The notes under the pieces were generated by a model that was given only the letters and a program-made list of their open reading frames with translations, did no database searches and was not told where the DNA came from. This document shows, one piece after another, positions 402 to 24,875 of a stretch of DNA of 34,736 bases (position 1 is its first letter; every line of letters starts with the position of its first letter). This DNA comes from Raja brachyura. Taxonomy: Eukaryota. The DNA is taken from contig CAUPSL010000466.1 of the NCBI GenBank assembly GCA_963514005.1, positions 1 through 34,736 on the forward strand, read 5' to 3'. Position numbers and translations under genes: made by a program.

Positions 402-630
402 ATGATTCGTCGGTGACGGTCCACCAGACTTTGGAGGCGATGGCCGGATCTCCCGGACAAAAGGTTAGGTGGTGTACTATCGAGGACGGCAATAGCAATC
501 ATGTGATGTACTACTGGTACAGACAATACCCGGGAGGAAGGGGGCAGAGAACCTGTTCTTCTCTTACGTTGCCGATAACGTGCAGAGAGGGGCACCGGTG
601 CAGCCAGAGAGTTTCCATCTGCCAAACAAG
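402..630 (+). pseudogene. TRBV: 3'-truncated TCR V exon (psiV-a1), TRBV30-like family
   Basis: Acceptor ctctttctcAG ends at 401, followed by (D)DSSVTVHQTLEAMAGSPGQKVRWCTIEDGNSNHVMYYWYRQYPG. After a frameshift it reads ENLFFSYVADNVQR...FHL. There is no second Cys and no RSS. The leader would lie upstream of the window. Confidence 0.85.
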
Positions 631-704
631 GTTACACGGATTATGGATCGGACACACACCCCTTCCTTTATTCGGGCCACTCAGAGATGATCTTAGAGCG
701 AAGT

Positions 705-712
705 TCATGTGA
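705..712 (+). promoter_or_regulatory. candidate V promoter element TCATGTGA (E-box)
   Basis: About 60 bp upstream of ATG 774. Identical at 23643-23650. The aligned position upstream of the third leader is TGACGTGA (13717-13724). Confidence 0.35.
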
Positions 713-773
713 GCAGCTTTGTCGATCCTGCCCTCACCGATCTCAAAGCGGAGAGAACTAACTCGGAACAAAG

Positions 774-810
774 ATGCTTCTGATACTGCGTTTGCTCCTC
801 TGCGTCCACT
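774..810 (+). CDS. TRBV: leader (signal peptide) exon of V-b1
   Basis: ATG CTT CTG ATA CTG CGT TTG CTC CTC TGC GTC CAC T|GTGAGT encodes MLLILRLLLCVH plus a phase-1 donor that matches the acceptor ending at 1591. Confidence 0.85.
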
Positions 811-1024
811 GTGAGTGAAAGCGTATAACCTATTCCTTATTTGCTGCCCTCTTCCTTTCTTCTTCGCATTCCATGTATTTGACCTCGTTCCTCCGATAGA
901 TTACGTCTCAATCAATCTTCGTCTCCGCTTCCTCTTCTACTCGGGCTCTTTTTCCCTTTTGCACCAACCCCTCTCCCTCTCCGCTCTCCATCATCTCGTA
1001 TTCATCCTCTTCCTTACCTCCTTA

Positions 1025-1098
1025 GGGAGCGGCACAGTGGCACAGATGCTGCTTCACCGCCGCCACACACCCGGGATCGATTCTGACCTCGGGTGATG
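1025..1098 (+). mobile_element. HE1-like SINE, tRNA-derived 5' head, in the V intron
   Basis: GCGGCACAGTGGCACAG...CCCGGGATCGATTCTGACCTCGGGTG has A-box and B-box-like sequence. Copy at 23963-24038. Confidence 0.65.
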
Positions 1099-1591
1099 CC
1101 GACTAATTAGTACCTCCGCTAGAAATATGCAAATGACCGTCTCCACAGCCGTCTGTGCAATGATTTCCACAGATTCACTGGCTAAAGGGATTCCTCCTCA
1201 TCTACATTTTAAGTATACATCCTTTTATCTGAGTCTGTGCCCCGTGATTCTGCAATCTCGCATTACCCCGAAACGCACCTCATACGTTAACCCTATGATC
1301 TCCGGAATCATTTTCGTTAATCTGCTCTGGATCCTCTCGAACGAACGCATTCCCTTGATCGGACGTGGGACCCATGACTGCTCGAAATATGCGAAATGAC
1401 ACCTCACCAGCGCCGAAAAAAGCCTCAGCATTACCTCGTTAAACAGTGCGTTTCACTAGGACGAACAGTCTATTTTTCTGGCTGTACATTTCAATCAATT
1501 CAGTTAATCCAAGAAAATAATTTTATTTTCTCCCCGTCCTCTTTGCTCCGGGACTCGGTCTTTACTCAACGCCTCCCCGTCTTTTACGCAG

Positions 1592-1890
1592 ATGCAACCT
1601 CGGTGACGGTCCATCAGACTCCGGACGCTCTGTCTGCATCTCCCGACCAGAAGGTGGAGGTGAAGTGTATTGTTAGAGGACGGTAGCAGCAGCAACTATA
1701 GGTATTGGTACAGACAATACCCGGGAGCGGGGACACATATCCTGTTTTCTTCAGCAGGAGAGGGAAAACGTGCAGCCAGATAATTCGGTGGCCGGATTGA
1801 AGGCAGAGAGACCGAACCTCAACGAGTTCTATTTAAAGTCCTCCGTCTTAGAGGCGGATTCGTCGGCCGTGTATTTCTGCGCCTGGTCTA
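1592..1890 (+). pseudogene. TRBV: TCR V exon V-b1, frameshifted as assembled
   Basis: Acceptor ttttacgcAG ends at 1591. The exon is 299 nt versus 297 nt in its paralogue, with an extra T at 1673/1674 and an extra A in 1765-1768; TAG stop at 1684-1686. Otherwise it has Cys, WYRQ and YFCAWS. Confidence 0.85.
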
Positions 1891-1929
1891 CACAGCGACT
1901 CGAAGAAACGAGGGTGACACACAAAAACC
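1891..1929 (+). promoter_or_regulatory. recombination signal sequence, 23-bp spacer
   Basis: Heptamer CACAGCG 1891-1897, 23-nt spacer 1898-1920, consensus nonamer ACAAAAACC 1921-1929. Confidence 0.95.
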
Positions 1930-2148
1930 TCACACATCCTTCCATTGACAATGAGCGCCCCCTCGGGCAGTGAGACCCCTTGTGCTGCTCCCCCCGTCAT
2001 TCTATATTTCTTCCCTTAGATCGTTTCTGTCCTTCATCAAACCTGCAGACCCATGTGCCTACCAAAAAGTATCAAAAACGCTAATATCGTATCTGCCTCC
2101 ACCACCACCCCGACAGCGCACTACTTGCGGAGCTGAGACATACCGAGA

Positions 2149-3030
2149 NNNNNNNNNNNNNNNNNNNNNNNNNNNNNNNNNNNNNNNNNNNNNNNNNNNN
2201 NNNNNNNNNNNNNNNNNNNNNNNNNNNNNNNNNNNNNNNNNNNNNNNNNNNNNNNNNNNNNNNNNNNNNNNNNNNNNNNNNNNNNNNNNNNNNNNNNNNN
2301 NNNNNNNNNNNNNNNNNNNNNNNNNNNNNNNNNNNNNNNNNNNNNNNNNNNNNNNNNNNNNNNNNNNNNNNNNNNNNNNNNNACAGACNNNNNNNNNNNN
2401 NNNNNNNNNNNNNNNNNNNNNNNNNNNNNNNNNNNNNNNNNNNNNNNNNNNNNNNNNNNNNNNNNNNNNNNNNNNNNNNNNNNNNNNNNNNNNNNNNNNN
2501 NNNNNNNNNNNNNNNNNNNNNNNNNNNNNNNNNNNNNNNNNNNNNNNNNNNNNNNNNNNNNNNNNNNNNNNNNNNNNNNNNNNNNNNNNNNNNNNNNNNC
2601 GGGCAGACAGACAGTGCGCTAGAGAGATATAGTTTGGTAGAGATGGAAATTAAATTCATGTAGAGTGAGCAAGAGAGAGAGAGATGTAGGGAGAGATAGC
2701 AATAGCGAAAGATGGAAATAGACGAAATTGAGAAAGCGAGGGGGAGAGCTGAAGAGAGAGATAGTACGTTAGAGATTCAGGGAGAGCAACATGGGTAGAT
2801 AGATAGAAAAACTAATAGACAGATGAATAGGTGGAGGTCAGCACAAACACACGAACAGTCGAAACGATAGAGAGCTGGGCATGTGTTCGGGTGAGGGAGA
2901 TCACGGCGAAGGTCAGCAAGCACATGAGAGATTAAGAGACGATGAAAATAGAGAAAGTTAACGCGGCCAATCCACCGACGATGAATAAGCTTCAGAAATC
3001 TAGACGGAACTAGAGAGGCAGAGTATTCGA
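2149..3030. repeat. N-masked and GA-rich low-complexity tract
   Basis: N runs with an island (acagac), flanked by degenerate (GA)n. N runs sit at the homologous site in copy 2 (25089-25279). Confidence 0.7.
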
Positions 3031-3084
3031 TGGCGGGTGGAAGGAGATTGGTCATAATGATGCAGGGGGCATGTCCGACCCATA

Positions 3085-3775
3085 ATCCGCGAATCCATAT
3101 GCGGAGTATTTTAAGATCCTGGGAACCATCATCTCCTAGGACCTTAAATGGGTGGCTACCATCGATTCCACGGTCAAAAAGGCACAACTTAGGACGTACT
3201 GCCTGCGGCAGCTGAGGAAGCACAAACTACCACAGGCAATGATGCTCCAATGCAATATGGCCATCGTAGAGTCTGTCCTCATCTTTACATCTCGGTCTTG
3301 ATTGGCTCAGCCACCAAGCACGGCATCCAGAGGCCGCAGCGAATCGTCCGATCAGCTGATAAGGTTATTGGCTGCAACCTTCCCTCCATTGAAGAACAGT
3401 ACAGTGCAAGGGCCAGGAAGCGAGCGGGTAAGATCATCTCCGACCCCTCTCTCGGTGGCCACAAACTCATTGAATCACTTCCTTCTGGAACGCGACTCCG
3501 GACTGCCTACGCTGCCACAGCCATACACAAAAACAGCTTGATTTAACGAGTAGCAGCTCTAATCAATACCCGAAAATCTGCAGCCTCCTTTTGCACTGGT
3601 ACTTTATTTAATTCACATGTGTGATCAACAATGTTTTATTATTGATGCTTAATGTTTTATGTGTCATTCCTAACTGTACATCGTTGTCACTTTCGGGCAA
3701 ATTCCATGTATGTGAATGCTTAGCCAATAAAGTTATTCATTTTCATTAATTCATTAATTCATTTATTCATTCATA
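3085..3775 (+). mobile_element. old 5'-truncated Rex1/Babar LINE fragment
   Basis: Translates FKILGTIIS*DLKW...VKKAQLRTYCLRQLRK...QRIVRSADKVIG...RARKRAGKIISDPS. Ends with AATAAA and an (ATTC)n-like tail. Confidence 0.8.
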
Positions 3776-3779
3776 CCCA

Positions 3780-4920: not shown

Positions 4921-6590
4921 CAGTCGATAGCATTGTTACATATTCTGATTCACATTTTACCCCCTAGGTAGAGAACACCTTCACTGAACACTTTATGTTT
5001 CATATCTCGACATTACTGATTAAAGTTTAAAAAAATATCAAAATACTGAGTTTTGAACGATCGGCTTCAACTGATGACGTCACAATGGCTAGGCGAGCAG
5101 TGATCAGCTTCCAACACACTTCGATACAAAGTTACAAGGCAGAAAGACAGAAGACAGAAACACTCTGCACTTTTTACATCAATGGGATGTTTCAACATGA
5201 GGGGAAGAGGCAATTGGTATTGCAGTTGGAACTGGTGCGGCAGGCACGGGAAGAGCACTTGGATTTTCTTAAAGTCCACTGCTGAGGGCGACAGGAGAGT
5301 GCTGGAATATTACGTTCAGGGATGGGTTACGTTGCGTTGGGGGAACGGCTGAGTGCTGGAATATTGCGTTGGAAGACCAGACCATTGGGGCAACAGACAT
5401 GTTCTGATTCACATTTTTCATTAAAATCATTAAAATCATTCCTTCCAGCTTCCAACACACTTCGTTGCAATGTTGCGACACAGGAACACGCTGAACTTTT
5501 CACCTTATAGTAGAGGGAGGGCGAATTGCTATTGCTACACGTGGGGGAAGTGCAATTTGATTTTTTTTTCAAAGCCCACGGCTGAGGGAGGTAGTGGAGT
5601 GCTGGAATCATACGTTCGGAAATGGCTTGAGTTGGAGGAACACGTGAGGGGCTACGCGTATGGAAAGGGTGCTTTGGGGGAGCAGACCCAAGGTGTCTGC
5701 ACTTGGTCTAGGAAGATATGCCTATTAAAACTCTGATCGTGTGTATAGGTGTATATGTGTGTGTGTATATGGGTGTGTATATGTGATTGTTTTATATCTT
5801 CGCAAACATACTACGTGGCAACGATTACATTTTTACATGTTCTGATTCACATTTTCCCCTCTAGGCAGAGATGAACAACGCTGAACATATTACGCTTTAT
5901 TTCTCGACTTATTCTCGACGTATTATTGTTTAATGTTTATAAAAATCAAAGGACTTTGAATTTAAAACGGCCAGCTTCCACTGATGACTTCACAATGGCT
6001 CGGCTGCCAGTGATCAGTTTCACTGAAGACCAACTTCAACTGGTGACGTCGCAATGGCTCGGCTAGCAGTGATCAGAATCACTGACGATTTCATTCTACA
6101 TTTTCCAAGTTAGTCACGATTAAAGTTTTATAAATACCAACGTTAACAAGATGTTTTTCTCTTAAACTTCTCCGTCGCAGCTTCCAACACACTTCGATAC
6201 AATGTTACAAGACACAAACCCTCTGAACTTTTCATCTCAATGGGAATTTTCAACAGAAGGTGAAGGGCCAATTCTCTATTGTAGTTGTGACTTCTACGGC
6301 AGGCAGGGACGTGCAATTGTAATGTTTTTAAGTCCACTGCTGAGGGAGGCAGGGGAGTATTGGAATCTTACGTTCGGGAACGGCTTGAGTTGGAGGACCA
6401 CGCCACCCGTGGGAGCTAATGGTAGGGAACGGGCGTTTGGGGGATGCAGACCCAACGGTCTGCTCTTGGTCTGATATTTATAAAAAGTCTGAAGTTGTAT
6501 GTTTGGCTATGTGCGTTTATATGTGTGTGTATATGTGGTTATCTTTAGGTCTTCGCAAAAGCAGTACTCGGTAGCAATTACATTTTTATA
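4921..6590 (+). mobile_element. head-to-tail array of non-autonomous Helitron-like elements (unit 1 ends 5711, unit 2 5712-6473, unit 3 starts 6474)
   Basis: Units end with a hairpin GCAGAC..GTCTGC, ~7 nt, then CTAG (5682-5711; degenerate at 6446-6473). They start with an AT-rich stretch and a GT microsatellite and share internal blocks (GCTTCCAACACACTTCG at ~5107, ~5448, ~6180). Confidence 0.65.
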
Positions 6591-9500
6591 TATTATTTTT
6601 CAAAAATATATTTTTATTGGAAGCAATGCATATTGCTAATGATATAACAGTTTTTCAAATACACATTTAACTTGTTTCAAAAGTTATACAAATATTACGA
6701 AATGATTTATATAAGCTTCGATTTTTTTTAGAAAGTAAAGAAGTAAAAGAATAGGTGTATAATGAACGAAGATGGTGATTAAATAATATTGATTATGAGT
6801 ATTCAAGAAAAAAAAATAATAATAATAAGATAAATTAAAACAATTTAAAAAATTGAAAAAAAACAAACAATAAAAACAAAAATAAAAAATAATACAAGCA
6901 AACGATTATTATATATTTAAAAAAAGATTGAAGTATACATCTTAACAATGAATGGAACAATTTCACATAACAATATCTATAGAGACGTGTATACAAATCT
7001 CAAAATAGATCATTTAATCTAATCCTACAACCGGGATTTATTGAGTTACAATGCTGAGCTCAGCTACCCCTTCAGATAGTCAGTGAATGGAGACCATATT
7101 TGTTCAAAAAGTTCATATTTGTCCATTAGACAAACCTGATTCTCTCCAAATGCAACGTTCTGAACATTTCCACTGTCCACATTTTAATTGTGGGGGATAA
7201 TGTTCCCTTCCAGAATTTTAATATATTTTTTTTTCCAATAATCAAACAGTAATCAAGGAAATTTATTTGATTTACTGTTAATATTAGGTTTGAATCTGAA
7301 ACTCCTAATATTAGGGTTAATATTAATAATAATAAACTTAGGGTCGGGATCCAATTTGATTTTAAGAACTACAGAAATGATTTAAAAAATATCGGTCCAA
7401 AAACTATTAAGTTTTATAATGATACAAAACTATGCGTTAAATTAGCTTCTGTATTCTGACATTTATCACAAATAGAGGAGATGTTAGGAAAAATTCTATT
7501 TAATTTCGTTTTTGAATAATGTAATCTATATAATACTTTGAATTGTATTAAGATATGTCTGGCATTTAACGAACCACGGTGTATACGTTGTAGACATCAT
7601 TCCCAAATATCTTTCATTATAGATAAGCCTGTTTCATTTTCCCATAATTGGCGGCATGATTCTGTTGTTGGAATTTCCCTATTCAAAAGAGTATTAAATG
7701 TATACGCTATTAGTTTTTCTGTATTTGGGTGCTTGTTAAGCAATTCTTCCAGTAATCCTGGTTCTCTATTTTTATAGTCTTGCATGTTTGACTTAATACA
7801 GTCTCTGATTTGTAAGCACCTAAACAAGTTATTTGGATGCAATCCATAGATATCTTTTAACTCTTGAAATGAGAGAAAGTTTCCTTTCCTGTAAAGGTGT
7901 TCTATCCTTATAATTCCTAAATGTTTCCATTGTCTAAACCCCTTATCCAATATAGAGGGTTTAAATAAAGGATTATTCATAATTGGTAAGCAAAGCGACA
8001 TATTATCGAAATGTAGAGTCTTAACTATTTGTTTCCAAATACGTCTATTGCTATAAATTATATCCGCTCTATCGCTTCCTTCAACGTCTATTGCTATAAA
8101 TTATAGGGTTTTCTCTATACATTTGTTTGTACTTCCCTTGGAGCAAAGAGAATCGAACATATCAAAAGGTAAACGTCCTTGGGGGAGTGTTTGCTAGTGC
8201 TGTCGGGGAGGATTTAAACTAATGTGGCAGGGGGATGGGTACAAGAGCAGAGAGGCAGGTGGGTATAAACGAGGGTGGAGGCAATAGGGAGCAAGGTGAA
8301 AAGTAAAAGTGGCAGGCAGACAAAACCAGGGCAAAAATCAAAAAGGGGCACTTCTCAACAAAATTGTATAAGGGGTAAGAGCGTTGTAAAAATAAGCCTG
8401 AAGGCTTTGTGTCTCAATGCAAGGAGTATTCGTAATAAGGCGGATGAGTTGAACGTGCAGATAGCTATTAATGAGTATGATATATTTGGGATCACGGAGA
8501 CATGGCTCCAGGGTGACCAAGGCTGGGAGCTGAACATCCAGGGATATTCTATATTCAGGAGGGATAGAGAGAAAGGAAAAGGAAGTGGGGTAGCGTTGCT
8601 GGTTAGAGAGGAGATTAACGCAATGGAAAGGAAGGACATGAGCTTGGAGCATGTGGAATCGGTATGGGTGGAGCTGCGAAACACTAAGGGGCAGAAAACG
8701 CTAGTGAGAGTTGTGTACAGGCCACCTAACAGTAGTAGTGAAGTTGGGGATGGTATCAAACAGGAAATTAAAAATGCGTGCGACAAAGGCAAAACAGTTA
8801 TAATGGGTGACTTCAATCTACATATACATTGGGTGAATCAAATTGACAGGGGCGCTGAGGAAGAGGATTGTTTGCAAAGTATGCGGGATAGTTATCTAAA
8901 TCAACATGTAGAGGAACCAACGAGAGAGCAGGCCATTTTAGACTGGGTAGTGAGTAATGAGGAAGGGATAGTTATCAGTCTTATTGTGCGTGCTCCCTTG
9001 GGCAAGAGTGACCATAATATGGTCGAGTTCTTCATTAGGATGGAGAGTGACATTGTTAATTCAGAACCAATGGTTCTGAACTTAAGGAAAGGTAACTTTG
9101 AGGGTATGAGACGTGAATTGGCCAAGATTGACTGGCAATCAATTCTAAAAGGGTTGACGGTTGATACGCAATGGAAGACATTTAAAGACTGCATGGATGA
9201 ACTACAAAAATTGTTCATCCCAGTTTGGTAAAAGAATAGATCAGGGAAGGTAGTGCATCCGTGGGTAACAAGGGAAATCAGGGATAGTATCAAAGCAAAG
9301 GATGATGCGTACAAAGTAGCCAGAAAAAGCAGCATACCAGAGGACTGGGAGACATTCAGAGACCAGCAGAGGAGGACAAAGGGCTTGATTAGGAAAGGAA
9401 AAATAGATTATGAAAGAAAACTGGCAGGGAATATAAAAATTGACTGCAAAAGTTTTTATAGATATGTGAAGAGAAAGAGATTAGTTAAAACAAATGTAGG

Positions 9501-12500
9501 TCCCTTGCAGTCAGAAACAGGTGAGTTGATCATGGGGAACTAGGATATAGCGGACCAATTGAATAACTACTTTGGTTCCGTCTTCACTAAGGAAGACATA
9601 AATAATCTGCCGGAAATAGCAGGGGACCGCCGGTCAAAGGAGGACTTGAGTGAAATCCAGGTTAGACGGGAATTGGTGTTGTGTAAATTGAATGGATTAA
9701 AGGCCGATAAATCCCAGGGCCAGATAGGCTGCATCGCAGAGTACTTAAGGAAGTAGCTCCGGAAATAGTGGATGCATTAGTGATAATCTTTCAAAACTCT
9801 TTAGATTCTGGAGTAGTTCCTGAGGATTGGCGGATAGCAAACGTAACCCCTCTTTTTAAGAAGGGGGGGGGAGAGAGAAAACGGGGAATTACAGACCAGT
9901 TAGTCTAACATCGGTAGTGGGGAACTGCTAGAGTCAGTTATTAAAGATGGGATAGCAGCACATTTGGAAAGTGGCGAAATCATTGGACAAAGTCAGCATG
10001 GATTTACGAAAGGTAAATCAGGTCTGACGAATCTTGTGGATTTTTTCGAGGATGTAACTAGTAACGTGGATAGGGGAGAACCAGTGGATGTGGTGTATCT
10101 GGACTTCCAGAAGGCTTTCGACAAGGTCCCACATAACAGATTAGTATATAAACTTAAAGCATACGGCATTGGGGGTTCAGTATTGATGTGGAGAGAGAAC
10201 TGGCTGGCAAACAGGAAGCAAAGAGTAGGAGTAAACGGGTCGTTTTCACAATGGCAGGCAGTGACTAGTGGGGTACCGCAAGGCTCAGTGCTGGAGCCCC
10301 AGCTATTTACAATATACATAAATGATCTGGATGAGGGAATTGAAGGCAATATCTCCAAGTTTGCGGATGACACTAAGCTGGGGGGCAGTGTTAGCTGTGA
10401 GGAGGATGCTAGGAGACTGCAAGGTGACTTGGATAGGCTGGGTGAGTGGGCAAATGTTTGGCAGATGCAGTATAATGTGGATAAATGTGAGGTTATCCAC
10501 TTTGTTGGCAAAAATAGGAAAACAGACTATTACCTAAATGGGGGCCGATTAGGAAAAGGGGAGATGCAGCGCGACCTGGGTGTCATGGTACACCAGTCAT
10601 TGAAAGTAGGCATGCAGGTACAGCAGGCAGTGAAGAAAGCGAATGGTAAGTTAGCTTTCATTGCAAAAGGATTTGAGTATAGGAGCAGGGAGGTTCTACT
10701 TCAGTTGTATAGGGTCTTGGTGAGGCCAAACCTGGAGTATTGCGTACAGTTCTGGTCTCCAAATCTGAGGAAGGACATTATTGCCATAGAGGGAGTGCAG
10801 AGAAGGTTCACCAGACTGATCCCTGGGATGTCAGGACTGTCTTATGAACAAAGACTGCATACACTCGGTTTATACTCTCTAGAATTTAGGAGATTGAGAG
10901 GGGATCTTATAGAAACTTACAAAATTCTTAAGGGGTTGGACAGGCTTGATGCAGAAAGATTGTTCCCGATGTTGGGGAGGTCCAGGACAAGGGGTCACAG
11001 CTTAAGGGTAAGGGGGAAATCCTTTAGGACCGAGATGAAAAGTTTTTTTTTCACACAGAGAGTGGTAAGTCTCTGGAACTCTCTGCCACAGAGGGTAGTT
11101 GAGGCCAGTTCATTGGCTATATTTAAGAGGGAGTTAGATGTGGCCCTTGTGGCTAAGGGGATCAGAGGGTATGGAGAGAAGGCAGGTACGGGATACTGAG
11201 TTGGATGATCAGCCATGATCATATTGAATGGCGGTGCAGTCTCGAAGGGCTGAATGGCCTACTCCTGCACCTAATGTCTATGTTTCTATGTAAACAGTCC
11301 TCCTTTTCCATTTGAAACCAACCTGGTTCCTGATCCATATTTATCAACCAAAAAATCATATTCTTAATCTGAACCGCTCAAAAATAATATAAAAAATTCA
11401 TGTTTTTTTACTTATTCTATGACTTTTATAATCCCAAATAAAGCTATTAGCGATAGAATCGATTTTTTAAAAAAAGTTTTAGAGAGGTATAAAGGGATAG
11501 ATTGAAATAAATATAATAATTGTGGTAGAAAAATCATTTTCATACCATTTATGCTGCCGATCATTGATATTGGTACTGTTTTCCAATGTAGAATATTCTT
11601 TTTTAGTTTGTTCAATAATTGTGGATAATTTGATTTCAATAAAGAATTATAAGATTTAAATACATTAATACCTAGATATTTAATTTTGTCCCTAACTATT
11701 TTCAATGGGAATTGTTGTTATATATGTTATTTAATTCTAGTTATACGCATAATTTCACTTTTATTCCAATTAATTCTATATCCTGAAAATGGACCAAATT
11801 TAGTTATAACATTTAGTCAATTAGGAATACTAATCTCCGGTTTCGTAATGTATATTAAGACATCATCTGCATATAAAGATATTTTATTCGTTGTGGTATT
11901 GGTATTATATCCATATATTTCTGGGTCTGATCTAATCTTTTCGGCTAATGGTTCTATTGCAAGAACAAATAATAAAGGTGATAACGGACATCCTTATCTG
12001 CAACCACTAAAGATATTACATTTTGCTGATAACATTTGATTTGTTAGTATTCTTGCTGTTGGGTTAGAATATAACTTTTTAACCCATTTACAAAATATAT
12101 CACCTAGTTGAAATTTCTGCATTATCTTAAATAAGTAAGGCCATTCAACCTGATCGAATGTTTTTTTCCGCATCAAGGGATATGACAGCTAATTCAATAT
12201 CATTAACTCTTTTTGAATATATGATATTGAATAGACGTCTCAAGTTATAAGTGGAATAACGTTTGGGAATAAAGCCTGTTTGATCATGATGTATTAATTT
12301 ATTAATCACTAAACTTAACCTTTGGGGTAAGATTTTAGTTAATATTTTTTGATCAGTGTTTAAAAGAGCAATTGCTCTATATGATCCAGGATCTCCCAGA
12401 TCCTTATCTACTTTAGAAATTAGTGTAATTGTGGGCTCATTTAAAGTTTCTGGTAACTTTGCTTGTTCGTAAGCGTATTTATATATTGTTTGTAAACGTG

Positions 12501-13777: not shown

Positions 13778-13814
13778 ATGCTTCTAACACTGCGCCTGAT
13801 CCACCCCGTTCACT
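13778..13814 (+). pseudogene. TRBV: leader exon of psiV-c
   Basis: ATG CTT CTA ACA CTG CGC CTG ATC CAC CCC GTT CAC T|GTGAGC (MLLTLRLIHPVH), 37 nt like the leader at 774. The upstream ~100 bp and the downstream intron also align. Confidence 0.8.
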
Positions 13815-14063
13815 GTGAGCGAAAGTGGATTAAGTGTTCCTAAATTCTTTGCCGCTCACTTAATTTCTTCTTCGTATCGCCTTTCTTTGACCTCGTTTAT
13901 ACAATAGACGTGATCTCAATCCATCTTTGTCGCGGCTTCGTTTTCTTCTCACACTCTTATGCCTTTAGACACCCCTCTCCTCTTCCATCCCAATCCCACA
14001 CTCATCTCGTCTTTAATCCTCTTCTTTACTGGACTAGGGTGGGTTGGGGGGGGGGGGGGGGCA

Positions 14064-14322: not shown

Positions 14323-17300
14323 AGACTTCCGGTGGCGCCATGTTCTAAGAGGGAATCGCGCCAGATCAGCTCCGCAAAAATCTGCAGAAGAAACGGGGGT
14401 AAAGGGGACAGCTAACGGTACTTACCGCAGGAGAACGACTTGGAACGGCTCCGGGTGCGATTGCAAGGTGCGTGACGTCATCAGGCGCGCGACCCCAGTA
14501 AGACATTTAAAATGCAGCACTCCCCCCCCCCCCCCCCCCACTGCAAAAAAAGTTGTAAAAAGGGAGGTAGGCCTCACTGGAGCCTCGGGCTCGAGTTTGG
14601 CTGCCTCCCGGGAAGAGATCTCACTGAAGAAAAGTGAAATGGAGGAACTTAAAAACTCCATGTTAGGTGAGATGAAGAAACTGCTGAGAGAAATGAAGAA
14701 GTAATATAAAGATGAAATAAAACATTTAAGAGCAGATATCCAGGTGTTTCATGAAAGAATTAAAGATGAATTAACAAAAGAAGTCATAACGACGGTAAAG
14801 ATCATGATGAATGAATGGAAAGAAAAGGCGAACGCTGAGTTTCAAACCCAAATGGCTGAGGTAAACGACAAGGTTGCTGGGATAGAAAAAATAATGGATG
14901 CGAAGATAGATCCTATTTTAAACTCATTCGACCAACAAAATGATGCAATTAAAGAACTGACTGAACTTGCTGTATCAAGTAATAAGGAGAGAGAGAAGCT
15001 ACGCGCCGAGAATAAACGCCTCTCAGCGCTACTACGCAAAATAAATGAGAAATGTATTGATTTGGAGGGACGACAAAGACGTAAGAATCTGCTTATAGTA
15101 GGATTGAGCGAGGGTCGTGAAGGAAATCAAGACCCGCGAAAATTTGCTGCAAAACTCCTAAAGGACATTCTGAATTTGGATCAAGAACCCCTGTTGGGAC
15201 GTGCGCACAGGGCTTTAAGACGGGCCCCTGGGAGAGGTGCACCACCAAGAAAAATGATTGTAAAGGTGGCTTATGATCACGTCTTCGAAGAAATGATGAA
15301 GATAATAATAAGAAAGAGAAATCTGAAATATGAGGGAGACAACTTCAGTATTTTCAGAGATTACCCAGCGGAAGTGGCTAAGAGAAGATCTTTATTCACA
15401 GAAACAAGAGGCATTCTGAGGAATATAAAGGATACAAAGGATCTGAGATATGGCTTCATGTACCCAGCAACATTGAGAGTAACCTACGATAACAAGGAAT
15501 ACCGTTTCGTTAAGCATACTGAAGCACTGGAATTCGCTCGAGATATACAGAAGAAGGCAGAAGAGGAAGCAGAAGAAGAAGCACTGGAGGAAGAAGAAGA
15601 TGACTGAACTTTTATCACCGGCCTGCGGTTATGAATTACTCACCGAGAAAGAGGAGGAATAATGGACACGAAGTTGTAGTTTTGTATTAATTATTAAATT
15701 TTCAATTATTCCCCGAATATAGTATTACTTATTATAATACTAATTGTAATAGAAACTAGTAACTAGAAACTAGTAATATGAATAATAGAAATAACTACTA
15801 AGTATATAAAGTTAGTACCCCACCCCAATATACACAGCATCCGAGATAGGAGCTGGAACAATTAACATTTTTTTTTTAAACGGAAGTCACTAGATTAATA
15901 GCCACGCTAGTGTGGCTTCCACTAATGCACACTGCACATTATATAAGTGTAGTTTCTTTTTTTTCTGGGCACCCTATTAACACCCTTTACTCTTTTTTTA
16001 TTTACATTTTTTATTATTTTTTATATATTAAATATTTGATCTTATATTATATATTATATGAATGTAGTTACGATCGATATTGTATAATTAGTTTAAGAAG
16101 ACATGTATATGGATTAATGGGGATAATAATTTTCATCAGATTGATGTTTGGGTGTAACGTAGAGCTGGAGGGGTCGAGAAGGCTACTCAAAAAAAAGCCA
16201 CCCTAACAGTAAAATGCAAGACATGAATGTGAAGACTGGGGGTGATGGAATTACCTTCTGTAGTTGGAATGTTAAGGGAATTAATGAACCAATTAAAAGG
16301 GGAAAGGTGTTAGCTCAGTTGAACAGATTGAAATCAGACGTTACTTTCCTTCAAGAGACTCATCTTAAAAAAGATGCTCAACATAGATTAACAGCTAAAT
16401 GGATTTCAAAGGTGTATCACTCTTCATTTATACATAAATCCAGAGGAGTTGCAATAATTATTCGTAAAGGTATACCTTTTAAACAAAGTTCTATAATAGA
16501 GGATAAAGATGGTAGATATGTAATAATTACAGGGGAATTATATTCAAAAAAAGTAATTTTTATGAATATATATGCCCCTAACTTTGATAATCCATTATTT
16601 TTTAAGAAAATATTTAATAATATTCCTATATCCACTCAATATAATTTAATAATTGGGGGTGATTTAAATTGCACTTTAGATAACTATCTAGACAGATCTT
16701 CTACAAAAAGGAAAGCTGCCTCTAAATCAAGTAAACTTATAAATTATTTTATTAACACATCTAATGTTAAGGATATTTGGAGATTAGATAATCCATCCGG
16801 ACGAGAATATTCCTTTTTCTCGCCCGTATTTGGAACTTACTCGAGGATAGATTATTTTCTAATAGATTCAAAACTACTTCCTTTCACGTATGATGCAAAA
16901 TATCACAATATTATTATTTCAGATCATGCGCCACTAACATTCAAGATAAAATTAAAATATATATTTAACAAAACTACTGCTTTGAGATTTAATCCACAGA
17001 TATTAAAGGACAAGGACTGTTGTAATCATGTGGTGGAACAGATTAATTTATTTTTTGAAACTAATGACAAACCTGAAATTTCACCATCACTACTTTGGGA
17101 TACATTTAAAGCATTTATGCGTGGTGCAATAATATCAGCACAAGCATATTTTAATAAAGAAAATCGAAAGATGGAACAAAAGTTAGAAAATTAGATAAAA
17201 CAACTAGATAGCGAAAATATAAAACATCCTTCTAAAGAGTTAAGTAATAAAATTGCAATAGTAAAATATAGACTAAATAAAATATATTCTAACCAGGTCA

Positions 17301-20300
17301 TTAAACTTTTTCAACAAACCAAACAAGTGCATTTTGAATTTGGAGACAAACCACAAAAATTGCTAGCACGACAACTTAGAAAATTAGATGATGAAAAAAT
17401 GATACATAGAATTAGATCTGCGCATGGAAATATATTGACTATACCAAAATACATTAATGACAGATTTCTACAATATTATCAAAATTTTTATTCATCGAAA
17501 TTAACAGGACAAACAGATGGAATGGAAACATTCCTACAAGAATGTCAAATTAATAGTTTAGATCAGGAAGGTAGACACTTGTGAAATGCTGAAATAACAG
17601 TAAAAGATATTGAAGAATCAATTGGTTCGTTATGGAATGGAAAAGCTGCGGGCCCTGATGGCCTGAGTGCAGAATTTTATTAAAAAATTCAAGATCTGAT
17701 TTCCTCAAGATTACATACAGTGTATAGATATGCATATGAACAAGGAAAATTACCAGAATCTTTAAATGAATCCACAATTACACTCATTCCTAAGGTAGAC
17801 AAGGATTTGGAAGATCCTGGATCATATAGAGCGATTGCCCTTCTAAATACAGAACAAAAAATATTAACTAAAGTTTTATCTCGGAGATTAAGTCTGGTGA
17901 TCTCTAAATTAATACATTATGACCAAACAGGTTTTATTCCAAAACGCTATTCATCCCATAATCTTAGACGCTTGTTTAATATTATATATTCAAAAAGAGT
18001 ATGGGACACGGAATTAGCGGTTATATCGTTAGACGCAGAAAAGGCATTCGATCATTCGGTGGAATGGTTATATTTATTTAATATAATGGAAAAGTTTCAT
18101 TTGGGGGATAGATTTTGTAAATGGGTAAGAATTCTATATTCGAATCCTACTGCAAGAATTTTAACTAATCAAATACTATCAGCTAAATTTAAGCTCTCTA
18201 GGGGATGCAGACAGGGATGTCCGTTATCGCCTTTATTATTTGCTTTGGTGATAGAGCCTCTGGCGGAAAGAATTAGATCTGAACCTGAAATATATGGCTT
18301 TAATACTGACACAACAACTAATAAAATATCTTTATATGCAGATGATGTTTTGATTTATATTACAAAACCGGAAATTAGTATTCCCAAGCTGTTTAATGTT
18401 ATAACTAAATTTGGCACATTTTCTGGATATAGGATTAATTGCAACAAAAGTGATATTATGCCTATAACTGGAATAAATTTAAATATATTACAACAATACC
18501 CACTAAAAATAGTTACAGAAAAATTTAAATATTTAGGAATTAATGTAACTAAATCCTATAACTCATTAATTAAATCTAATTATCCTCAGCTACTAGATAA
18601 ACTTAGAAAAAACATTTTATATTGGAAAACACTTCCTATATCTATGATTGGTAGAATAAATGCTATAAAAATGGTTTTTCTACCACAATTGTTATATTTG
18701 TTTCAGGCTATTCCTTTTTTACTCCCGAAAACCTTTTTAAAAAAAATTGATAATATTGTTAATAGTTTTATTTGGGACTATAAAAATCATAGAATAAGTA
18801 AAACACATTTATGTAAATCTAAGATAAATGGAGGATTAGCACTTCCAAATTTTTAATATTATTTCTGGGCTGTCCAGATTAAGAATATGAATTTCTGGTG
18901 GGTAAATATGGATCATGAACCAATGTGGTTAAAGATGGAAAAGGAAGACTGTTTACCTTTCAACGTAGGCTCGATTCTCTTTGCCCCAAAGGAAGTACAA
19001 AAAAAAATTAGAGGGAAAACCCTATAATTTATAATAATAGACGCATTTGGAAACAAATAGTTAAGACTTTACATTTAGATAATCTCTCACTTAGACTACC
19101 AAATATGAATAACCCATTATTTAAACCCTCTATATTAGATGGGGGGTTTAGACATTGGGACGATTTAGGAATTAAAAGGATAGAGCACCTTTATAGAAAA
19201 GGAAAATTTATTTTATTCCAGGAGTTACAAGATATCTACGGATTGTCTCCACAACACTTGTTTAGGTACTTACAAATTAGAGATTATATTAAATCTAATA
19301 CACAAGATTATAAAAATAAAGATCCAGGATTATTAGATGAACTGTTTAACTTGCACCCAAATACAGAAACATTAATAGCTTATATATATAACATTATTTT
19401 GGATAAGGAGAATCCAATAACTGAAACATATCGTCAAGCATGGGAAAATGAAATTGGATTATCTATAACAAAAGAAAATTGGGAAGAAAGTTTACAACGA
19501 ATACATTGGTGTTCGTTAAATGCCAGACATACACTGATACAATTTAAAGTATTATATAGATTACATTATTCGAAAACTAAATTAAATAGTATCTTTCCCA
19601 ATCTCTCCTCTATTTGTGATAAATGTAAGAATTTAGAAGCAAATTTAATACATAGTTTTGTTACATGTCCCAAATTGAATTATTACTGGACAGAAATTTT
19701 TAAAGTTATTTCTGAAGTTCTTAAAGTTAGATTGGACCCTGACCCAAAGTTAATAATATTTGGAATTCCGGACTCAAATTTGGTACTTACAGTAAATCAA
19801 AGAAATGTCTTTGATTACTGTTTGATAATAGGGAAAAAAATCATACTGAAATTTTGGAAGGGAACATTATCCCCCACAATTAAAATGTGGGCAGCAGAGA
19901 TGTTGGAGACGTTACATTTAGAAAGAATTAGATTTGTCCTATTGGACAAATATAATTCCTTCGAACAGATATGGTCTCCATATATACAGTATTTAGAGAA
20001 GTAGCTGTTCTTGGCATCACAGCTCGACGGGTACCCTACGGGATTTGATGAGAATAATTCATTTTCATACTAGGATTAATATGCATGTCTCTATTGATAT
20101 TATCATTTGTAATAGTTTTATTTACAATATATTTTGTTGTTTTTCATTTATATATATATATAATATTTTTTCACCTTTTTGTTAGTGTTTTTTTTGGGGT
20201 TTTTTTCTTTTCTCTTTTTTCTTATATATAATCAAATTATTATTTAATCACATCTTTATTGATTTATAACTGCTCTATTCTTTTTCTATCTTTATTTCCA

Positions 20301-20429
20301 AAAAAATAGAAGATAATAATTATAAATGTGTTATTTGTATAAATATTGAATTAAGCTGATGTTTGTAAATTTGTTTTAAACATTGTAAATTGGTTACTTC
20401 TAATAAAAAAAGTTATAAAAAATATATAT
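14323..20429 (+). mobile_element. full-length L1 retrotransposon, inactive
   Basis: 5' end GACTTCCGGTGGCGCCATG. ORF1 ~14512-15607 (coiled coil, DLEGRQRRKNL, RAHR, YPATLRV; in-frame TAA 14702-14704). ORF2 16214-20004 (SWNVKG, LQETH, SRIDY, SDH, RQGCPLSP, YADD, CxxC..H..C) with stops and frameshifts. AATAAA 20402-20407. TSD ATATTGTGAATGG at 14310-14322 and 20430-20442. Confidence 0.95.
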
Positions 20430-20816
20430 ATATTGTGAATGGTGATCTGTGGTTGGTGTGGACCACACGGGACCATAAAACCAAAACACATCTGACCAGA
20501 ATTAGGACATTTTGCCCATAAAAACTACCCCGCCGTTCATTCATGGCTGATCTACATTTCCCTCTGTACCTCCTTCTCCCCATAACCATTGACGCGCTCA
20601 TAATTTGCTAACTTTGACCTCACTAGCGCCTTATCAAGCTTCAGCATTACAGCCTTGACATACGTCACGGTGGGTCGGAGGATCTGTTTTCCTAGCTGTG
20701 CCGTTGAATCAATTCAGATAATCGATGGCAGACTTTATTTTATTTTCTCCCTGTTCACTGCTTCGCGTCTCCGTGTTAGCCTATCGCCCACCCCCAACAC
20801 CGCGACTCTTTCATAG

Positions 20817-21057
20817 ATGCCACCTCGGTAACTGTTGTGTGCATTGTAGAGGGCAGTACCAGCAGCAATAATGAGATGTATGGTACAGACAATACCCGGG
20901 AGAGGAGCCACAGAACATGTTCTACTCTTCAACAGACGATTACGTGGCCACAAAGATAACGTGGGTTTTAGGGCAGAAAGACCGAACACGAATTGTACCT
21001 AAATTCCACCGGCTGGAAGTGGAGTCACCGAACGTGTATTTCGACGCCCGGTGACCT
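20817..21057 (+). pseudogene. TRBV: decayed TCR V exon psiV-c
   Basis: Acceptor ctttcatAG ends at 20816. Reads DATSVTV, an FR1 deletion, then CIVEGSTSSNNEM / WYRQYPGEEPQNMFYSS / GFRAERPNT / VYFDAR*. Second Cys lost. RSS remnant CACCACG-22-ACCAATAAG at 21058-21095. Confidence 0.85.
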
Positions 21058-22203
21058 CACCACGACAACGGAAACGCAGAGGAGACACCAATAAGCGGCC
21101 TCGTCCGGCCGTGAGTTATACGCACTGTCGCCAACATTCGCGCCTCAAGTCTGTCTATCTGACACATTCCATTGCCAACTATGCAACTATTTGCCGGTTT
21201 AATTATCATTGTGTAATTCCGCCTTCATCAATATACACGTTGGCTTCACTTCCCCAATCACTTACAAACCTGTGAATGCGGGACTATATTGCAAATATTA
21301 GACTTGTAGCAATGTCACACCGCTCTGCTCGTTGCAGAGTCGTTTCACGGGAGGTTCAGAGGCGGGGCGTGGGGAGGGGGAGTGGTGGGTGACGTGGATT
21401 TGGAAGGCTGCGAAGAGTTTAGCAGTTATGATTCCAGCGGGAAGAAAGAGTGAGAGTTGGGTGGGAACGAGTTGGGTANNNNNNNNNNNNNNNNNNNNNN
21501 NNNNNNNNNNNNNNNNNNNNNNNNNNNNNNNNNNNNNNNNNNNNNNNNNNNNNNNNNNNNNNNNNNNNNNNNNNNNNNNNNNNNNNNNNNNNNNNNNNNN
21601 NNNNNNNNNNNNNNNNNNNNNNNNNNNNNNNNNNNNATAGAGACGGATAGGATGAGGCATAAAGGAGAGTGATAGACTTAAATAGAGACAGTTATAGCAG
21701 TAAATAAACACTGAAAGAGTGAGTGATGCGAGCGAGCAAGTGTGTGAGTGTGAGNNNNNNNNNNNNNNNNNNNNNNNNNNNNNNNNNNNNNNNNNNNNNN
21801 NNNNNNNNNNNNNNNNNNNNNNNNNNNNNNNNNNNNNNNNNNNNNNNNNNNNNNNNNNNNNNNNNNNNNNNNNNNNNNNNNNNNNNNNNNNNNNNNNNNN
21901 NNNNNNNNNNNNNNNNNNNNNNNNNNNNNNNNNNNNNNNNNNNNGGTCCTGGGGAGACAGGGGCTGGAGGGAATGCCTGACAAATGAAACGGAAGGGAGG
22001 AACATGAGGGAGAGCTGGCGGGGAGGGATTCGTCAGAGTGGAATTGACGATTGGAATTGGTTAATGGAAGAAGGGGGGCGTTTTCAGCCCTTACTAAATG
22101 CGGCCATGTATTTGATGGAGATACGAAATGTTTGGACGCGAATAGAGTTATCGCTCAATTCCCAAGCAAATATTGTTACTAAGGGAATAATCTCCTGAGA
22201 AAT

Positions 22204-22239
22204 ATGCTCTGATACCGCATCTGATGCTATCCTTCCACT
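22204..22239 (+). pseudogene. TRBV: frameshifted leader exon of psiV-a2
   Basis: ATGCT-CTGATACCGCATCTGATGCTATCCTTCCACT|GTGCGTGAAA aligns to the leader at 774 with a 1-nt deletion, giving TGA at codon 3. Confidence 0.75.
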
Positions 22240-22405
22240 GTGCGTGAAACAAAACAAATACCTTCTTCTTTCTTCCCTTCACCCGCTCTTTATCTTCCCC
22301 CTTTACTCGCTCTATCGCTATTCTCAACGCGCAGTCATAGACATAGGTGACACACAAAAACATCACTTCCTCCTCCGGTGGCAGTAAGTGCCCCCCTCCG
22401 GCCAT

Positions 22406-22879
22406 GAAACATAGAAACATAGAAAATAGGTGCAGGAGTAGGCCATTCGGCCCTTCGAGCCTGCACCGCCATTCAATATGATCATGGCTGATCATCCAAC
22501 TCAGTATCCCGTACCTGCCTTCTCTCCATACCCCCTGATCCCTTTAGCCACAAGTGCCACATCTAACGCCCTCTTAAATATAGCCAATGAACTGGCCTCA
22601 ACTACCTTCTGTGGCAGAGAATTCCAGAGACTCACCACTCTCTGTGTAAAGAATGTTTTCCTCATTTCGGTCCTAAAGGAATTCCCCCTTATCCTTAGAC
22701 TGTGACCCCTTGTTCTGGACTCCCCCAACATCGGGAACAATCTTCCAGCATCTAGCTTGTCCAACCTCTTAAGAATTTTGTAGGTTTCTATAAGATCCCC
22801 CCTCAATCTTCTAAATTCCATCGAGTACAAACCGAGTCTATCCAATCTTTCCTCATATGAAAGTCCTGACATCCCAGGA
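22406..22879 (-). mobile_element. CR1 3' fragment in the psiV-a2 intron
   Basis: Tail repeats plus PGMSGLSYEERLDRLGLYS...; nearly identical to 13034-13519. Confidence 0.95.
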
Positions 22880-23340
22880 CTTTTTGTGCTGCTCACCAAT
22901 CTCTCTGAGTATATCTCTTCCCTGGATGTTTACGTCCTTAATCCACGTGTTCGCAATCGAATCTACCCCATCATTCAATCGTAGCTGATCTACATTTTCC
23001 TCTCAATACCATTCGCCTGCCCTCTCCCCATAACCCTTGACATACCTACCAATCTTGACTATCAATCTCGGCCTTCCAAAGACCTATTTCCCGGTTTGTA
23101 GATTAATTGGCCCTCAGTAAATCGCTCCCAATGCGTAGGGAGTGATGAGAAAGTGGGCTAACATAGAACTAATGTCAACGAAAGATCGATGGAAGGCGTG
23201 GACGCGGTGGCATAACGAGCCTTTTTCTATGCTGCATCTTGCAAACAATTTAATCAACCGTTCAAGGTTATTTGACTGTTTTACGTGTTCTCTTTGATCT
23301 GGGTCGCCGTGCTGACTCAACACCTCCGTCTCTTTCTCAG

Positions 23341-23569
23341 ATGATGCGTCGGTGACGGTCCATCAGAATTTGGAGGCGATGGCCGGATCTCCCGGACAGA
23401 AGGCTAGGTGGTGTACTATCGAGGACGGCAATAACAATCATGTGATGTACTACTGGTACAGACAATACCCGGGAGGAAGGGGGCAGAGAACCTGTTCTTC
23501 TCTTACGTTGCCGATAACGTGCAGAGAGGGGCACCTGTGCAGACAGAGAGTTTCCATCTGCCAAACAAG
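23341..23569 (+). pseudogene. TRBV: 3'-truncated TCR V exon psiV-a2
   Basis: Acceptor tctttctcAG ends at 23340. Reads VTVHQNLEAMAGSPGQKARWCTIEDGNNNHVMYYWYRQYPG, with the same frameshift and truncation as psiV-a1. Confidence 0.85.
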
Positions 23570-23711
23570 GTTACACGGATTATGGATCGGACACACCCCC
23601 TTCCTTTATTCGGGCCACTCAGAGATGAGCATAGAGCGAAGTTCATGTGAGCAGCTTTGTCGATCCTGCCCTCACCGATCTCAAAGCGGAGAGAACTAAC
23701 TCGGAACAAAG

Positions 23712-23748
23712 ATGCTTCTGATACTGCGTTTGCTCCTCTGCGTCCACT
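23712..23748 (+). CDS. TRBV: leader exon of intact V-b2
   Basis: MLLILRLLLCVH + T|GTGAGT. 792-bp intron to the AG ending at 24540. Spliced product begins MLLILRLLLCVHYATS/VTVHQTP. Confidence 0.9.
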
Positions 23749-24540
23749 GTGAGTGAAAGCGTATAACCTATTCCTTATTTGCTGCCCTCTTCCTTTCTTC
23801 TTAGCATTCCATTTATTTGACCTCGTTCCTCCGATAGATTACGTCTAAGTCAATCTTCGTGTCCGCTTCCTCTTCTTCTCAGGCTCTTTTCCCTTTTGCG
23901 ACCAACCCCTCTCCCTCTCCGCTCTCCATCATCTCGTCTTCATCCTCTTCCTTACCTCCTTAGGGAGCGGCACAGTGGCACAGATGCTGCTTCACCGCCG
24001 CCACACACCCGGGATCGATTCTGACCTCGGGTGATGCCGACTAATTAAGTACCTGTCAATCTCCGCTTAGAAATATGCAAATGGCCGTCTCCACAGCCGT
24101 CTGCGGCAATGATTTCCACAGATTCACTGGCTAAAGAGATTCCTCCTCATCTACATTTTAAATATACATCATTTCATCTGAGTCTGTGCCCCGTGATTCT
24201 GCAATCTCGCATTATCCGAAACGCACCTCATACGTTAACCCTATGATCTCCGGAATCATTTTCGTTAATCTGCTCTGGATCCTCTCCAACGAACGCATTC
24301 CCTTGATCGGACGTGGGACCCATGACTGCTCGAAATATGCGAAATGACACCTCACCAGCGTCGAAAAAAAGCTTCAGCATTACATCGTTAAACAATACGT
24401 TTCACTAGGACGAACAGTCTATTTTTATCGCTGCACATTTCAATCAATTCAGTTAATCCAAGAAAATAATGTTATATTCTCCCCGTCCTCTTTGCTCCGG
24501 GACTCGGTCTTTACTCAACGCCTCCCCGTCTTTTACACAG

Positions 24541-24837
24541 ATGCAACCTCGGTGACGGTCCATCAGACTCCGGACGCTCTGTCTACATATCCCGACCAGA
24601 AGGTGGAGGTGAAGTGTACTGTAGAGGACGGTAGCAGCAGTAGCTACAGGTATTGGTACAGACAATACCCGGGAGCGGGGCCACATATCCTGTTTTCTTC
24701 AGCAGGAGAGGGAAACGTGCAGCCAGATAATTCGGTGGCCGGATTGAAGGCAGAGAGACCGAACCTCAACGAGTTCTATTTAAAATCCTCCGTCTTAGAG
24801 GCGGATTCGTCGGCCGTGTATTTCTGCGCCTGGTCTA
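24541..24837 (+). CDS. TRBV: apparently functional T-cell receptor V exon (TRBV30-like)
   Basis: Open Ig V-set exon ATSVTVHQTPDALSTYPDQKVEVKCTVEDGSSSSYRYWYRQYPGAGPHILFSSAGEGNVQPDNSVAGLKAERPNLNEFYLKSSVLEADSSAVYFCAWS with both Cys and the core Trp, directly followed by an RSS. Confidence 0.92.
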
Positions 24838-24875
24838 CACAGCGACTCGGAGAAACGAGGGTGTGCACAAAAACC
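24838..24875 (+). promoter_or_regulatory. recombination signal sequence, 22-bp spacer (23-type)
   Basis: CACAGCG 24838-24844, spacer 24845-24866, ACAAAAACC 24867-24875. Confidence 0.92.

What the first reader, a model, noticed from the sequence alone, without database searches (positions are those of the whole stretch)
402..24875. Tandemly expanded TRBV30-like (CAWS) V-gene family in a probable cartilaginous fish
Seen: five related + strand V segments in 25 kb with shared 36-37-nt phase-1 leaders and WYRQYPG; the two complete ones end YFCAWS plus a 23-type RSS. Known: human TRBV30 has TIHQWP..CTVEG..YWYRQ..LLFYSVG.G..ASRP..F.L.S..CAWS and is a single inverted V at the 3' end of the mammalian TRB locus. 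Inference: the same lineage may predate the chondrichthyan/osteichthyan split and is here an amplified, actively turning-over family rather than a lone gene.
Basis: partly seen in the sequence, partly recalled or inferred. Interest (0 to 1): 0.7.

Follow-up and report, generated by a model that had tools for sequence, protein, structure and literature searches.

The report
Skate TRBV30-like T-cell receptor segments
This skate DNA holds five T-cell-receptor beta variable segments, only one of them intact, from a multi-copy family that likely shares an ancestor with the lone, backwards-facing human segment TRBV30, which would make that lineage as old as jawed vertebrates.

Summary
The five V segments are real, but only one (24541) is intact. 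V1592 has two 1-bp insertions, and four of the five come from one ~3.7-kb, ~95%-identical duplication. The window is a whole 34.7-kb contig of a skate (closest protein: little skate, 79%) with no D, J or C. The family has about 21 segments (4 intact) on eight small contigs, in mixed orientation; one contig carries a canonical TRBD. CAW(S)-ending Vs also occur in stingray, manta, bamboo shark and catshark. With the motif cut out of the alignment, all 28 CAW Vs fell in one 31-tip group with bony-vertebrate TRBV30-like genes (FastTree 0.94; IQ-TREE 99/85 in one set, unresolved in another). AU tests reject an elasmobranch-only origin (p=0.008) but not two rival placements (p=0.17-0.2). Verdict: a fragment of an ordinary TRB locus in birth-and-death turnover, probably of the TRBV30 lineage, and shared by elasmobranchs rather than skate-specific. 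Multi-copy inverted Vβ groups are already described in tuatara, newt and axolotl, and the bamboo-shark TRB map is published; I found no paper tying shark Vβ to TRBV30.

The parts
402..600 (+). Pseudo-V (type A): acceptor, FR1 to WYRQYPG recognisable; 3' half degenerate, no second Cys, no RSS; leader off contig
   Evidence: the same degenerate tail is in little skate model P0001
774..810 (+). Leader exon (37 nt, phase 1, GT donor) of V1592; intron 781 nt
1592..1890 (+). Full-length CAWS V exon (type B) put out of frame by two 1-bp insertions (1673, 1765)
1891..1929 (+). RSS: CACAGCG, 23-nt spacer, ACAAAAACC
1..3666 (+). Copy 1 of the duplicated block (pseudo-V A + leader + V B + flank)
   Evidence: 95.6% over 2157 nt and 94.7% over 1058 nt to 22940-26329
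13778..13814 (+). Leader exon (37 nt) most likely of pseudo-V 20817; 13686-14029 is 68% like 23612-23955
   Evidence: pairing with V20817 inferred from position
14323..20429 (+). LINE (endonuclease and RT ORFs, stops present) inserted in the leader-V intron, flanked by a 13-nt direct repeat at 14310-14322 and 20430-20442
   Evidence: sequence, Pfam PF03372 and PF00078; L1-like label from my own knowledge
20817..21076 (+). Pseudo-V (type C): FR1 deletion, second Cys lost, degenerate RSS
22204..22239 (+). Broken leader (36 nt, stop in codon 3) of pseudo-V 23341
23341..23538 (+). Pseudo-V (type A), duplicate of V402
23712..23748 (+). Leader exon (37 nt, phase 1) of V24541; intron 792 nt
24541..24837 (+). 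Intact CAWS V exon (type B), V-set domain with both Cys and the FR2 Trp
   Evidence: a contig of run X2 is identical over 24364-25000 (X2 may be the source sample)
24838..24875 (+). RSS: CACAGCG, 22-nt spacer, ACAAAAACC
   Evidence: contigs of two other organisms carry a 1-nt insertion here (table 4)
22940..26329 (+). Copy 2 of the duplicated block; followed by an RT-bearing retroelement (about 26330-29481) that copy 1 lacks; homology resumes at 29482-29853

Best explanation
The window is a fragment of a skate T-cell-receptor V-segment array, with one intact and four broken segments, that likely belongs to the TRB locus and likely descends from the same ancestral Vβ gene as mammalian TRBV30. 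Shown: V24541 has a spliceable leader, an open V-set exon and an RSS; the family has about 21 segments on eight small contigs, four with intact reading frames, in both orientations; one of these contigs has a 12-RSS/D/23-RSS TRBD. Inferred: in thymocytes RAG joins the V's 22/23-spacer RSS to the 12-RSS of a D-J join, by deletion or by inversion according to orientation (inversional Vβ joining is shown for mouse Tcrb, PMC10772921, passages), giving a TCRβ chain whose CDR3 begins CAWS. Inferred: the array evolves by block duplication, retroelement insertion and decay. Inferred: the jawed-vertebrate ancestor already had at least two Vβ groups; this one stayed multi-copy in elasmobranchs and shrank to one inverted gene in mammals.
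For: V-set domain. The first two-domain TCR β chain in the PDB list is Mel5 (E 4.6e-13, ranked behind multi-V constructs), which is TRBV30 (PMC5887915). Of the top 150 representatives, CAW-ending Vs come from stingray, manta, bamboo shark, catshark, gar, bichir (automatic name TRBV30), two teleosts, frogs, newt, caecilian, and one unnamed protein that matches Mel5 β at E 6e-46. With sequences cut at the second Cys, 28 of 28 CAW tips of 177 fall in one 31-tip group (FastTree 0.938); the 75-row IQ-TREE gives the matching branch SH-aLRT 99.1 / UFBoot 85. For 16 of 16 elasmobranch Vs of this group the best-scoring domain outside the group is a member of the bony clade (17 of 162 candidates), and the mammalian TRBV30-like V scores its top 4 of 13 G000 Vs on the four CAWS ORFs. 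An all-elasmobranch TRBV clade is rejected (p-AU 0.008). TRBD: the only match of the D pattern in G000 is on C964, which also holds family members and a conventional TRBV. TRBC exons lie on two other small contigs. Catshark model P0017 has CAWS V, J and C with a TCRβ-like membrane segment.
Against: No D, J or C on this contig, and no overlap places it in a locus. No TRBJ was found on ten contigs or by two genome patterns. In the 45-row tree the union is not one side of a branch (a long TRG-like branch falls inside; 14% of bootstrap trees hold it). AU tests do not reject grouping the elasmobranch Vs with conventional TRBV (p 0.20) or with non-TRB Vs (p 0.165); these groups were named after I had seen trees. 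References were retrieved by likeness to the query, which favours the grouping. Identity to the mammalian TRBV30-like V is 33 of 92 against 28 of 92 for a conventional mouse Vβ, and the mammalian V ranks only 12th for V24541. V24541's spacer is 22 nt.
Confidence: 0.7

Rival explanations
1. They are TRBV segments, but the likeness to TRBV30 is retained ancestral state or convergence (including the Trp after CA); elasmobranch and bony-vertebrate CAW Vs are not one lineage.
For: Short domains (91 columns); open backbone in the 45-row tree; AU p 0.20 and 0.165 for rival placements; query-biased references.
Against: The CAW motif was left out of every alignment yet 28 of 28 CAW tips co-group in the largest tree; 99.1/85 in the 75-row tree; 16 of 16 best hits and the reverse top 4.
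Confidence: 0.2
2. The array is a displaced (orphon) or second TRB-like locus, as with squamate TRE, rather than part of the main TRB locus; most copies cannot rearrange.
For: No D/J/C on the contig; 17 of about 21 segments broken; catshark P0017 carries a C whose best skate TRBC match is only 39% identical, while a sawshark TRBC matches at 45-52%.
Against: Family members sit on the TRBD contig beside a conventional TRBV; a bamboo-shark model holds a CAWS V and a conventional V together (P0029); the published bamboo-shark locus has two D-J-C units in one locus (PMC10322711, supplementary file 16); TRBD and TRBC are on small contigs too, so the whole locus looks fragmented.
Confidence: 0.1
3. 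Part of the apparent turnover is an assembly artefact: copy 1 is a second haplotype or an error-rich copy, and V1592 may be intact in the animal.
For: 14 of 15 indels in block A are 1 bp, 8 of 15 in base runs, including both V1592 insertions; similar 1-bp indels break near-copies on C591 and C1598. X2 contigs show no copy-1 allele at 24785 (contigs drop variants).
Against: 73 substitutions in block A and 46 in block B, with no 1-bp indel in block B; a retroelement follows copy 2 only; several copy-1 letters occur in contigs of other organisms (table 3); a third, 85% copy on C199 and the V + pseudo-V pair in little skate.
Confidence: 0.2
4. A non-rearranging immunoglobulin-superfamily gene family, or V segments of another chain.
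For: AU does not reject grouping with non-TRB Vs (p 0.165).
Against: RSS directly after the exon in all four intact members; G000's Ig-light, IgH-like and TRA/D-like Vs lie on other contigs at about 27-40% identity and outside the group; TRBD linkage on C964.
Confidence: 0.03

Closest known systems
Human TRBV30 / mouse TRBV31 / opossum TRBV28 (PMC2275272, passages; Mel5 β chain, PDB 3HG1)
   Same: V exon ending CAWS; groups together in two of three trees with the motif removed.
   Different: Single gene, inverted and 3' of C in mammals; here about 21 segments in both orientations, position relative to C unknown; 33 of 92 residues identical to the mammalian TRBV30-like V.
3'-inverted TRBV clade of amniotes and its sister, squamate TREV (PMC11754216, passages and supplements)
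   Same: A multi-member clade containing TRBV30; five members in tuatara; includes non-inverted axolotl genes.
   Different: That paper traces the inversion to amniotes, some amphibians and salmonids. Its trees hold three nurse-shark Vβ; the text I saw does not place them in the clade, and the figure layout was unreadable.
Bamboo shark TRB locus map (PMC10322711, supplementary file 16, part 1)
   Same: Elasmobranch TRB with mixed orientations: 35 V, 2 D, 14 J, 2 C; 30 of 35 Vs lie 3' of and opposite to the nearest C.
   Different: Coordinates only, no sequences or lineage labels, so I could not tell which are CAWS Vs; 7 of 19 supplementary files were not searched.
Little skate gene model LOC129715124 (P0001)
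   Same: Same leader type, 79% identical V, same CAWS end, followed by the same type-A pseudo-V.
   Different: Annotated as uncharacterised; an automatic model that fuses two segments.
Nurse shark expressed βV2/βV3 (PMC5931798, primer table passage)
   Same: Primer peptides YVEQSP and AVYYCAC / VYFCA resemble catshark P0095, which joins the elasmobranch CAW group in the 75-row tree.
   Different: Ends CAC, not CAW; the link rests on primer motifs, and P0095's placement is open in the 45-row tree.

Membership tests
Rearranging antigen-receptor V segment | Leader exon, intron, V-set exon with two Cys and FR2 Trp in one frame | tested here: met
   V24541 only; not met by the other four
Rearranging antigen-receptor V segment | RSS directly 3' of the exon | tested here: met
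   V1592 (23-nt spacer), V24541 (22-nt spacer)
TRBV | Physically linked to TRBD-J-C | tested here: inconclusive
   None on this contig; family members share C964 with TRBD; TRBC on C411 and C1564; no TRBJ found
TRBV | Groups with TRBV rather than TRA/G/D or Ig V | tested here: inconclusive
   Nearest to bony TRBV30-like Vs in trees and scores; AU does not reject a non-TRB grouping
TRBV | Used in rearranged V-D-J-Cβ transcripts | not testable with these tools
   No suitable read set was offered; P0017 is a predicted model, not a rearranged cDNA
TRBV30/TRBV31 (inverted) lineage | Germline end C-A-W-S | tested here: met
TRBV30/TRBV31 (inverted) lineage | One clade with TRBV30 in V-domain trees | tested here: inconclusive
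   0.938, 99.1/85, not recovered in the 45-row tree but not rejected, p-AU 0.50
TRBV30/TRBV31 (inverted) lineage | Lies 3' of TRBC in inverted orientation | not testable with these tools
   Locus is in unordered contigs; on C964 two family segments are opposite to D and one split segment is parallel to it, all 5' of D
TRBV30/TRBV31 (inverted) lineage | Single copy (mammalian state) | tested here: not met
   About 21 segments; also not met in tuatara (PMC11754216)

The most novel reading that the evidence does not exclude
TRBV30 is the relic of one of the founding Vβ groups of jawed vertebrates, and in skates this group is the main Vβ repertoire (about 21 of 24 segments and 4 of 5 intact Vs found in this assembly); in sharks it may pair with its own, deeply diverged Cβ, a split of TRB that foreshadows squamate TRE.
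Probability: 0.2. Interest if true: 0.62.

Novelty: new member of a known kind. Interest (0 to 1): 0.36.

Why it matters
If the grouping holds, the odd inverted TRBV30 of mammals is not a mammalian or amniote oddity but the survivor of a Vβ group older than the shark/bony-fish split (about 450 million years, from general knowledge). That gives a concrete comparative target: whether the germline Trp at the start of CDR3β and the clade's CDR1/CDR2 serve a conserved ligand or pairing role, and when the inversion arose. It also supplies coordinates for an unannotated, fragmented skate TRB locus. Ancient Vβ families and birth-and-death turnover are expected, so the surprise is moderate.

Tried and rejected
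Word-based protein search at near length found nothing; the longer-length search found only the little skate model. PDB search with the TRBC exon returned multi-domain Ig chains in the top 60 and did not name the chain; its TRBC label rests on the sawshark match and the membrane segment. TRBJ searches were blank, which in this fragmented assembly shows nothing. No RNA holder listed; the one possible RNA run covered repeats and a sliver of the V end. A second read-laying on copy 1 gave no answer, so whether V1592's insertions are real stays open. Whether G000 has a second, catshark-type Cβ stays open: the C-domain search scored 150 of 222 candidates and found nothing above 40%, and the membrane exon was not searched. 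I considered using the 37-nt leader to pick out CAWS Vs in the bamboo-shark table (16 Vs with intron start 38, all in the flanking arrays) and dropped it, because conventional-type Vs here have 37-nt leaders too. No end-to-end overlaps order the contigs. No TRG V was extracted from the 20 kb fetched on C4. PMC3222143 (nurse shark TCR survey) was not held. Rows dropped before trees: of 244 reference domains 237 were well formed and 164 were kept after thinning; 3 non-V G000 hits were removed; the 75- and 45-row sets were hand-picked subsets, with P0095 added by hand.
Full report
Observation. The window is the whole of contig C515 of G000, a 2.7-Gb assembly in 1647 contigs. Five related V-like exons lie on the + strand at 402, 1592, 20817, 23341 and 24541. 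Bases 1-3666 and 22940-26329 are two copies of one block (95.6% and 94.7%), so there are three V types. Leaders of 37 nt sit at 774, 13778 and 23712, and a broken 36-nt leader at 22204. Only leader 23712 + V24541 splices to an open 111-residue product ending YFCAWS; its RSS has a 22-nt spacer. V1592 is full length with a 23-nt RSS but carries two 1-bp insertions. The other three lack the second Cys and a usable RSS. A LINE with a 13-nt flanking repeat lies between leader 13778 and V20817.

Organism. The only longer homologue in the word-based search is a little skate model at 79% identity that has the same leader type and the same V + pseudo-V pair. The window is therefore from a skate or close relative.

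The family in this genome. Protein and DNA searches put the closest relatives (42-63% protein identity for the long matches) on seven other small contigs, apart from Ig-light, IgH-like and TRA/D-like Vs on large contigs. I fetched those seven contigs and the two TRBC contigs whole. A profile gave 24 hits; removing one conventional V and merging two pairs of halves leaves about 21 segments, in mixed orientation on four contigs. Four splice to open frames with an RSS (C515, C692 spacer 24, C1442 spacer 23, C1598 spacer 23). A conventional Vβ query found three TRBV-type matches, one intact (150 of 190 candidates scored). These counts are lower bounds, and conventional arrays may be missing from the assembly.

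Link to TRB. C964 carries a 12-RSS / GGGACAGGGGGA / 23-RSS segment, the only match in G000; the conserved squamate TRBD is GGGACAGGGGGC (PMC11754216, passages). The same contig has the intact conventional V and three broken family segments. C1564 and C411 hold C exons 86% alike that match a sawshark protein named TCR β-like at 45-52%, and at 60-72% in the membrane exon. No J segment was found. So the locus is present but in pieces, and the window's place in it is inferred.

Other species. Among the best 150 of 530 representative hits, CAW-ending Vs that I looked up (30 proteins in three calls) came from Hypanus, Mobula, Chiloscyllium, Scyliorhinus, gar, bichir, Megalops, Paramormyrops, three frogs, newt and caecilian; one unnamed protein matches the Mel5 β chain at E 6e-46, and Mel5 is TRBV30 (PMC5887915, passage). 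Five bamboo-shark models with CAWS Vs share a scaffold length and have neighbouring locus numbers. Multi-copy CAWS Vs are thus general in elasmobranchs.

Trees. All alignments were cut at the second Cys, so the CAW motif is an independent character. FastTree on 177 domains put 28 of 28 CAW tips in one 31-tip group (0.938; the three others are gar and sturgeon CAG Vs). IQ-TREE on 75 rows gave the matching branch 99.1/85 (run completed). On 45 rows the group was not recovered (14% of bootstrap trees) but cost only 0.08 log-likelihood units (p-AU 0.50); a clade of all elasmobranch TRBV was rejected (p 0.008). Grouping the elasmobranch Vs with conventional TRBV (p 0.20) or non-TRB Vs (p 0.165) was not rejected. 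For 16 of 16 elasmobranch Vs the best outside score was to the bony clade. The references were gathered by likeness to the query, which favours this outcome, and most chain labels outside the looked-up proteins are my reading of end motifs. I put shared ancestry at about 0.75 and the whole explanation at 0.7.

How it likely works. Standard V(D)J joining of the V's RSS to a D-J join (established knowledge), by deletion or inversion; orientation-independent joining is shown for mouse Tcrb (PMC10772921, passages). Use of V24541 is untested. Duplication of V-containing blocks (C515 twice, C199 at 85%, C692/C1598 at about 91%), retroelement insertion and frameshifts fit birth-and-death turnover, though 1-bp indels in base runs could partly be consensus errors.

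What is known. TRBV30 orthologues in opossum and mouse (PMC2275272, passages); an inverted-TRBV clade with five tuatara members and non-inverted axolotl members, sister to squamate TREV (PMC11754216); inverted clusters in newt (PMC12698447, passages); axolotl and salmonid loci (PMC12529555, PMC10464911, passages); six expressed nurse-shark Vβ families (PMC5931798, passages); translocon TCR loci in cartilaginous fish (PMC6795676, passages); and a bamboo-shark TRB map with 30 of 35 Vs inverted to the nearest C (PMC10322711, passages and supplementary file 16). Eight literature searches found no paper that ties shark or skate Vβ to TRBV30; the library lacks most subscription papers. From recall only, not seen: Hawke et al. 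1996 argued that some Vβ family diversity predates the shark-mammal split, and Rast et al. 1997 described skate TCR chains; either may anticipate this. The scan's notes held nothing on this locus.

Verdict. Real, partly mis-described, and mostly expected biology: a piece of a skate TRBV array, probably of the TRBV30 lineage. New member of a known kind; interest 0.36.

Noticed in passing
G000:C964:7262-7273 (minus), L051: Canonical TRBD between a 12-RSS and a 23-RSS; no J found in the 7.2 kb downstream on the contig; an intact conventional TRBV lies about 4.3 kb upstream in the opposite orientation.
   Followed up: yes
G000:C411 (37624, 21490, 7764) and C1564 (9081, 14320): Two TRBC first exons, 86% alike, and three membrane exons: duplicated C cassettes; on C411 one C exon is followed by two membrane exons 16 and 30 kb downstream.
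   Followed up: partly
P0017 (catshark) versus P0088 (sawshark): Two quite different TCRβ-like constant regions in sharks; the skate C exons found match the P0088 type better. May correspond to the two C genes in the bamboo-shark map.
   Followed up: partly
window 14323-20429: Near full-length LINE with a 13-nt flanking repeat inside a V intron; an 89%-identical copy lies on C964 (44320-50068), and decayed inverted pieces at window 6847-8062 and 11290-12512.
   Followed up: partly
window 8269-11291 and about 26330-29481, 32120-33148: Further RT-bearing retroelements; the one after 26329 interrupts copy 2 of the duplicated block only.
   Followed up: partly
window 4925-6602 and 12511-12868: An unidentified 200-450-nt repeat in several 70-80% identical copies, split around the 6.8-12.5-kb retroelement stretch.
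   Followed up: no
G000:C692:17843 and C1598:495: A V subfamily whose two copies both have a 24-nt RSS spacer with near-perfect heptamer and nonamer; spacers across the family run 22-24.
   Followed up: no
G000:C4:73953973-73954224: C1-set exon that may be the TCR γ constant region (my reading); no V was extracted from the 20 kb around it.
   Followed up: partly
G000:C30 11.87-12.93 Mb: More than 25 tandem light-chain-like V-C clusters within about 1 Mb.
   Followed up: no
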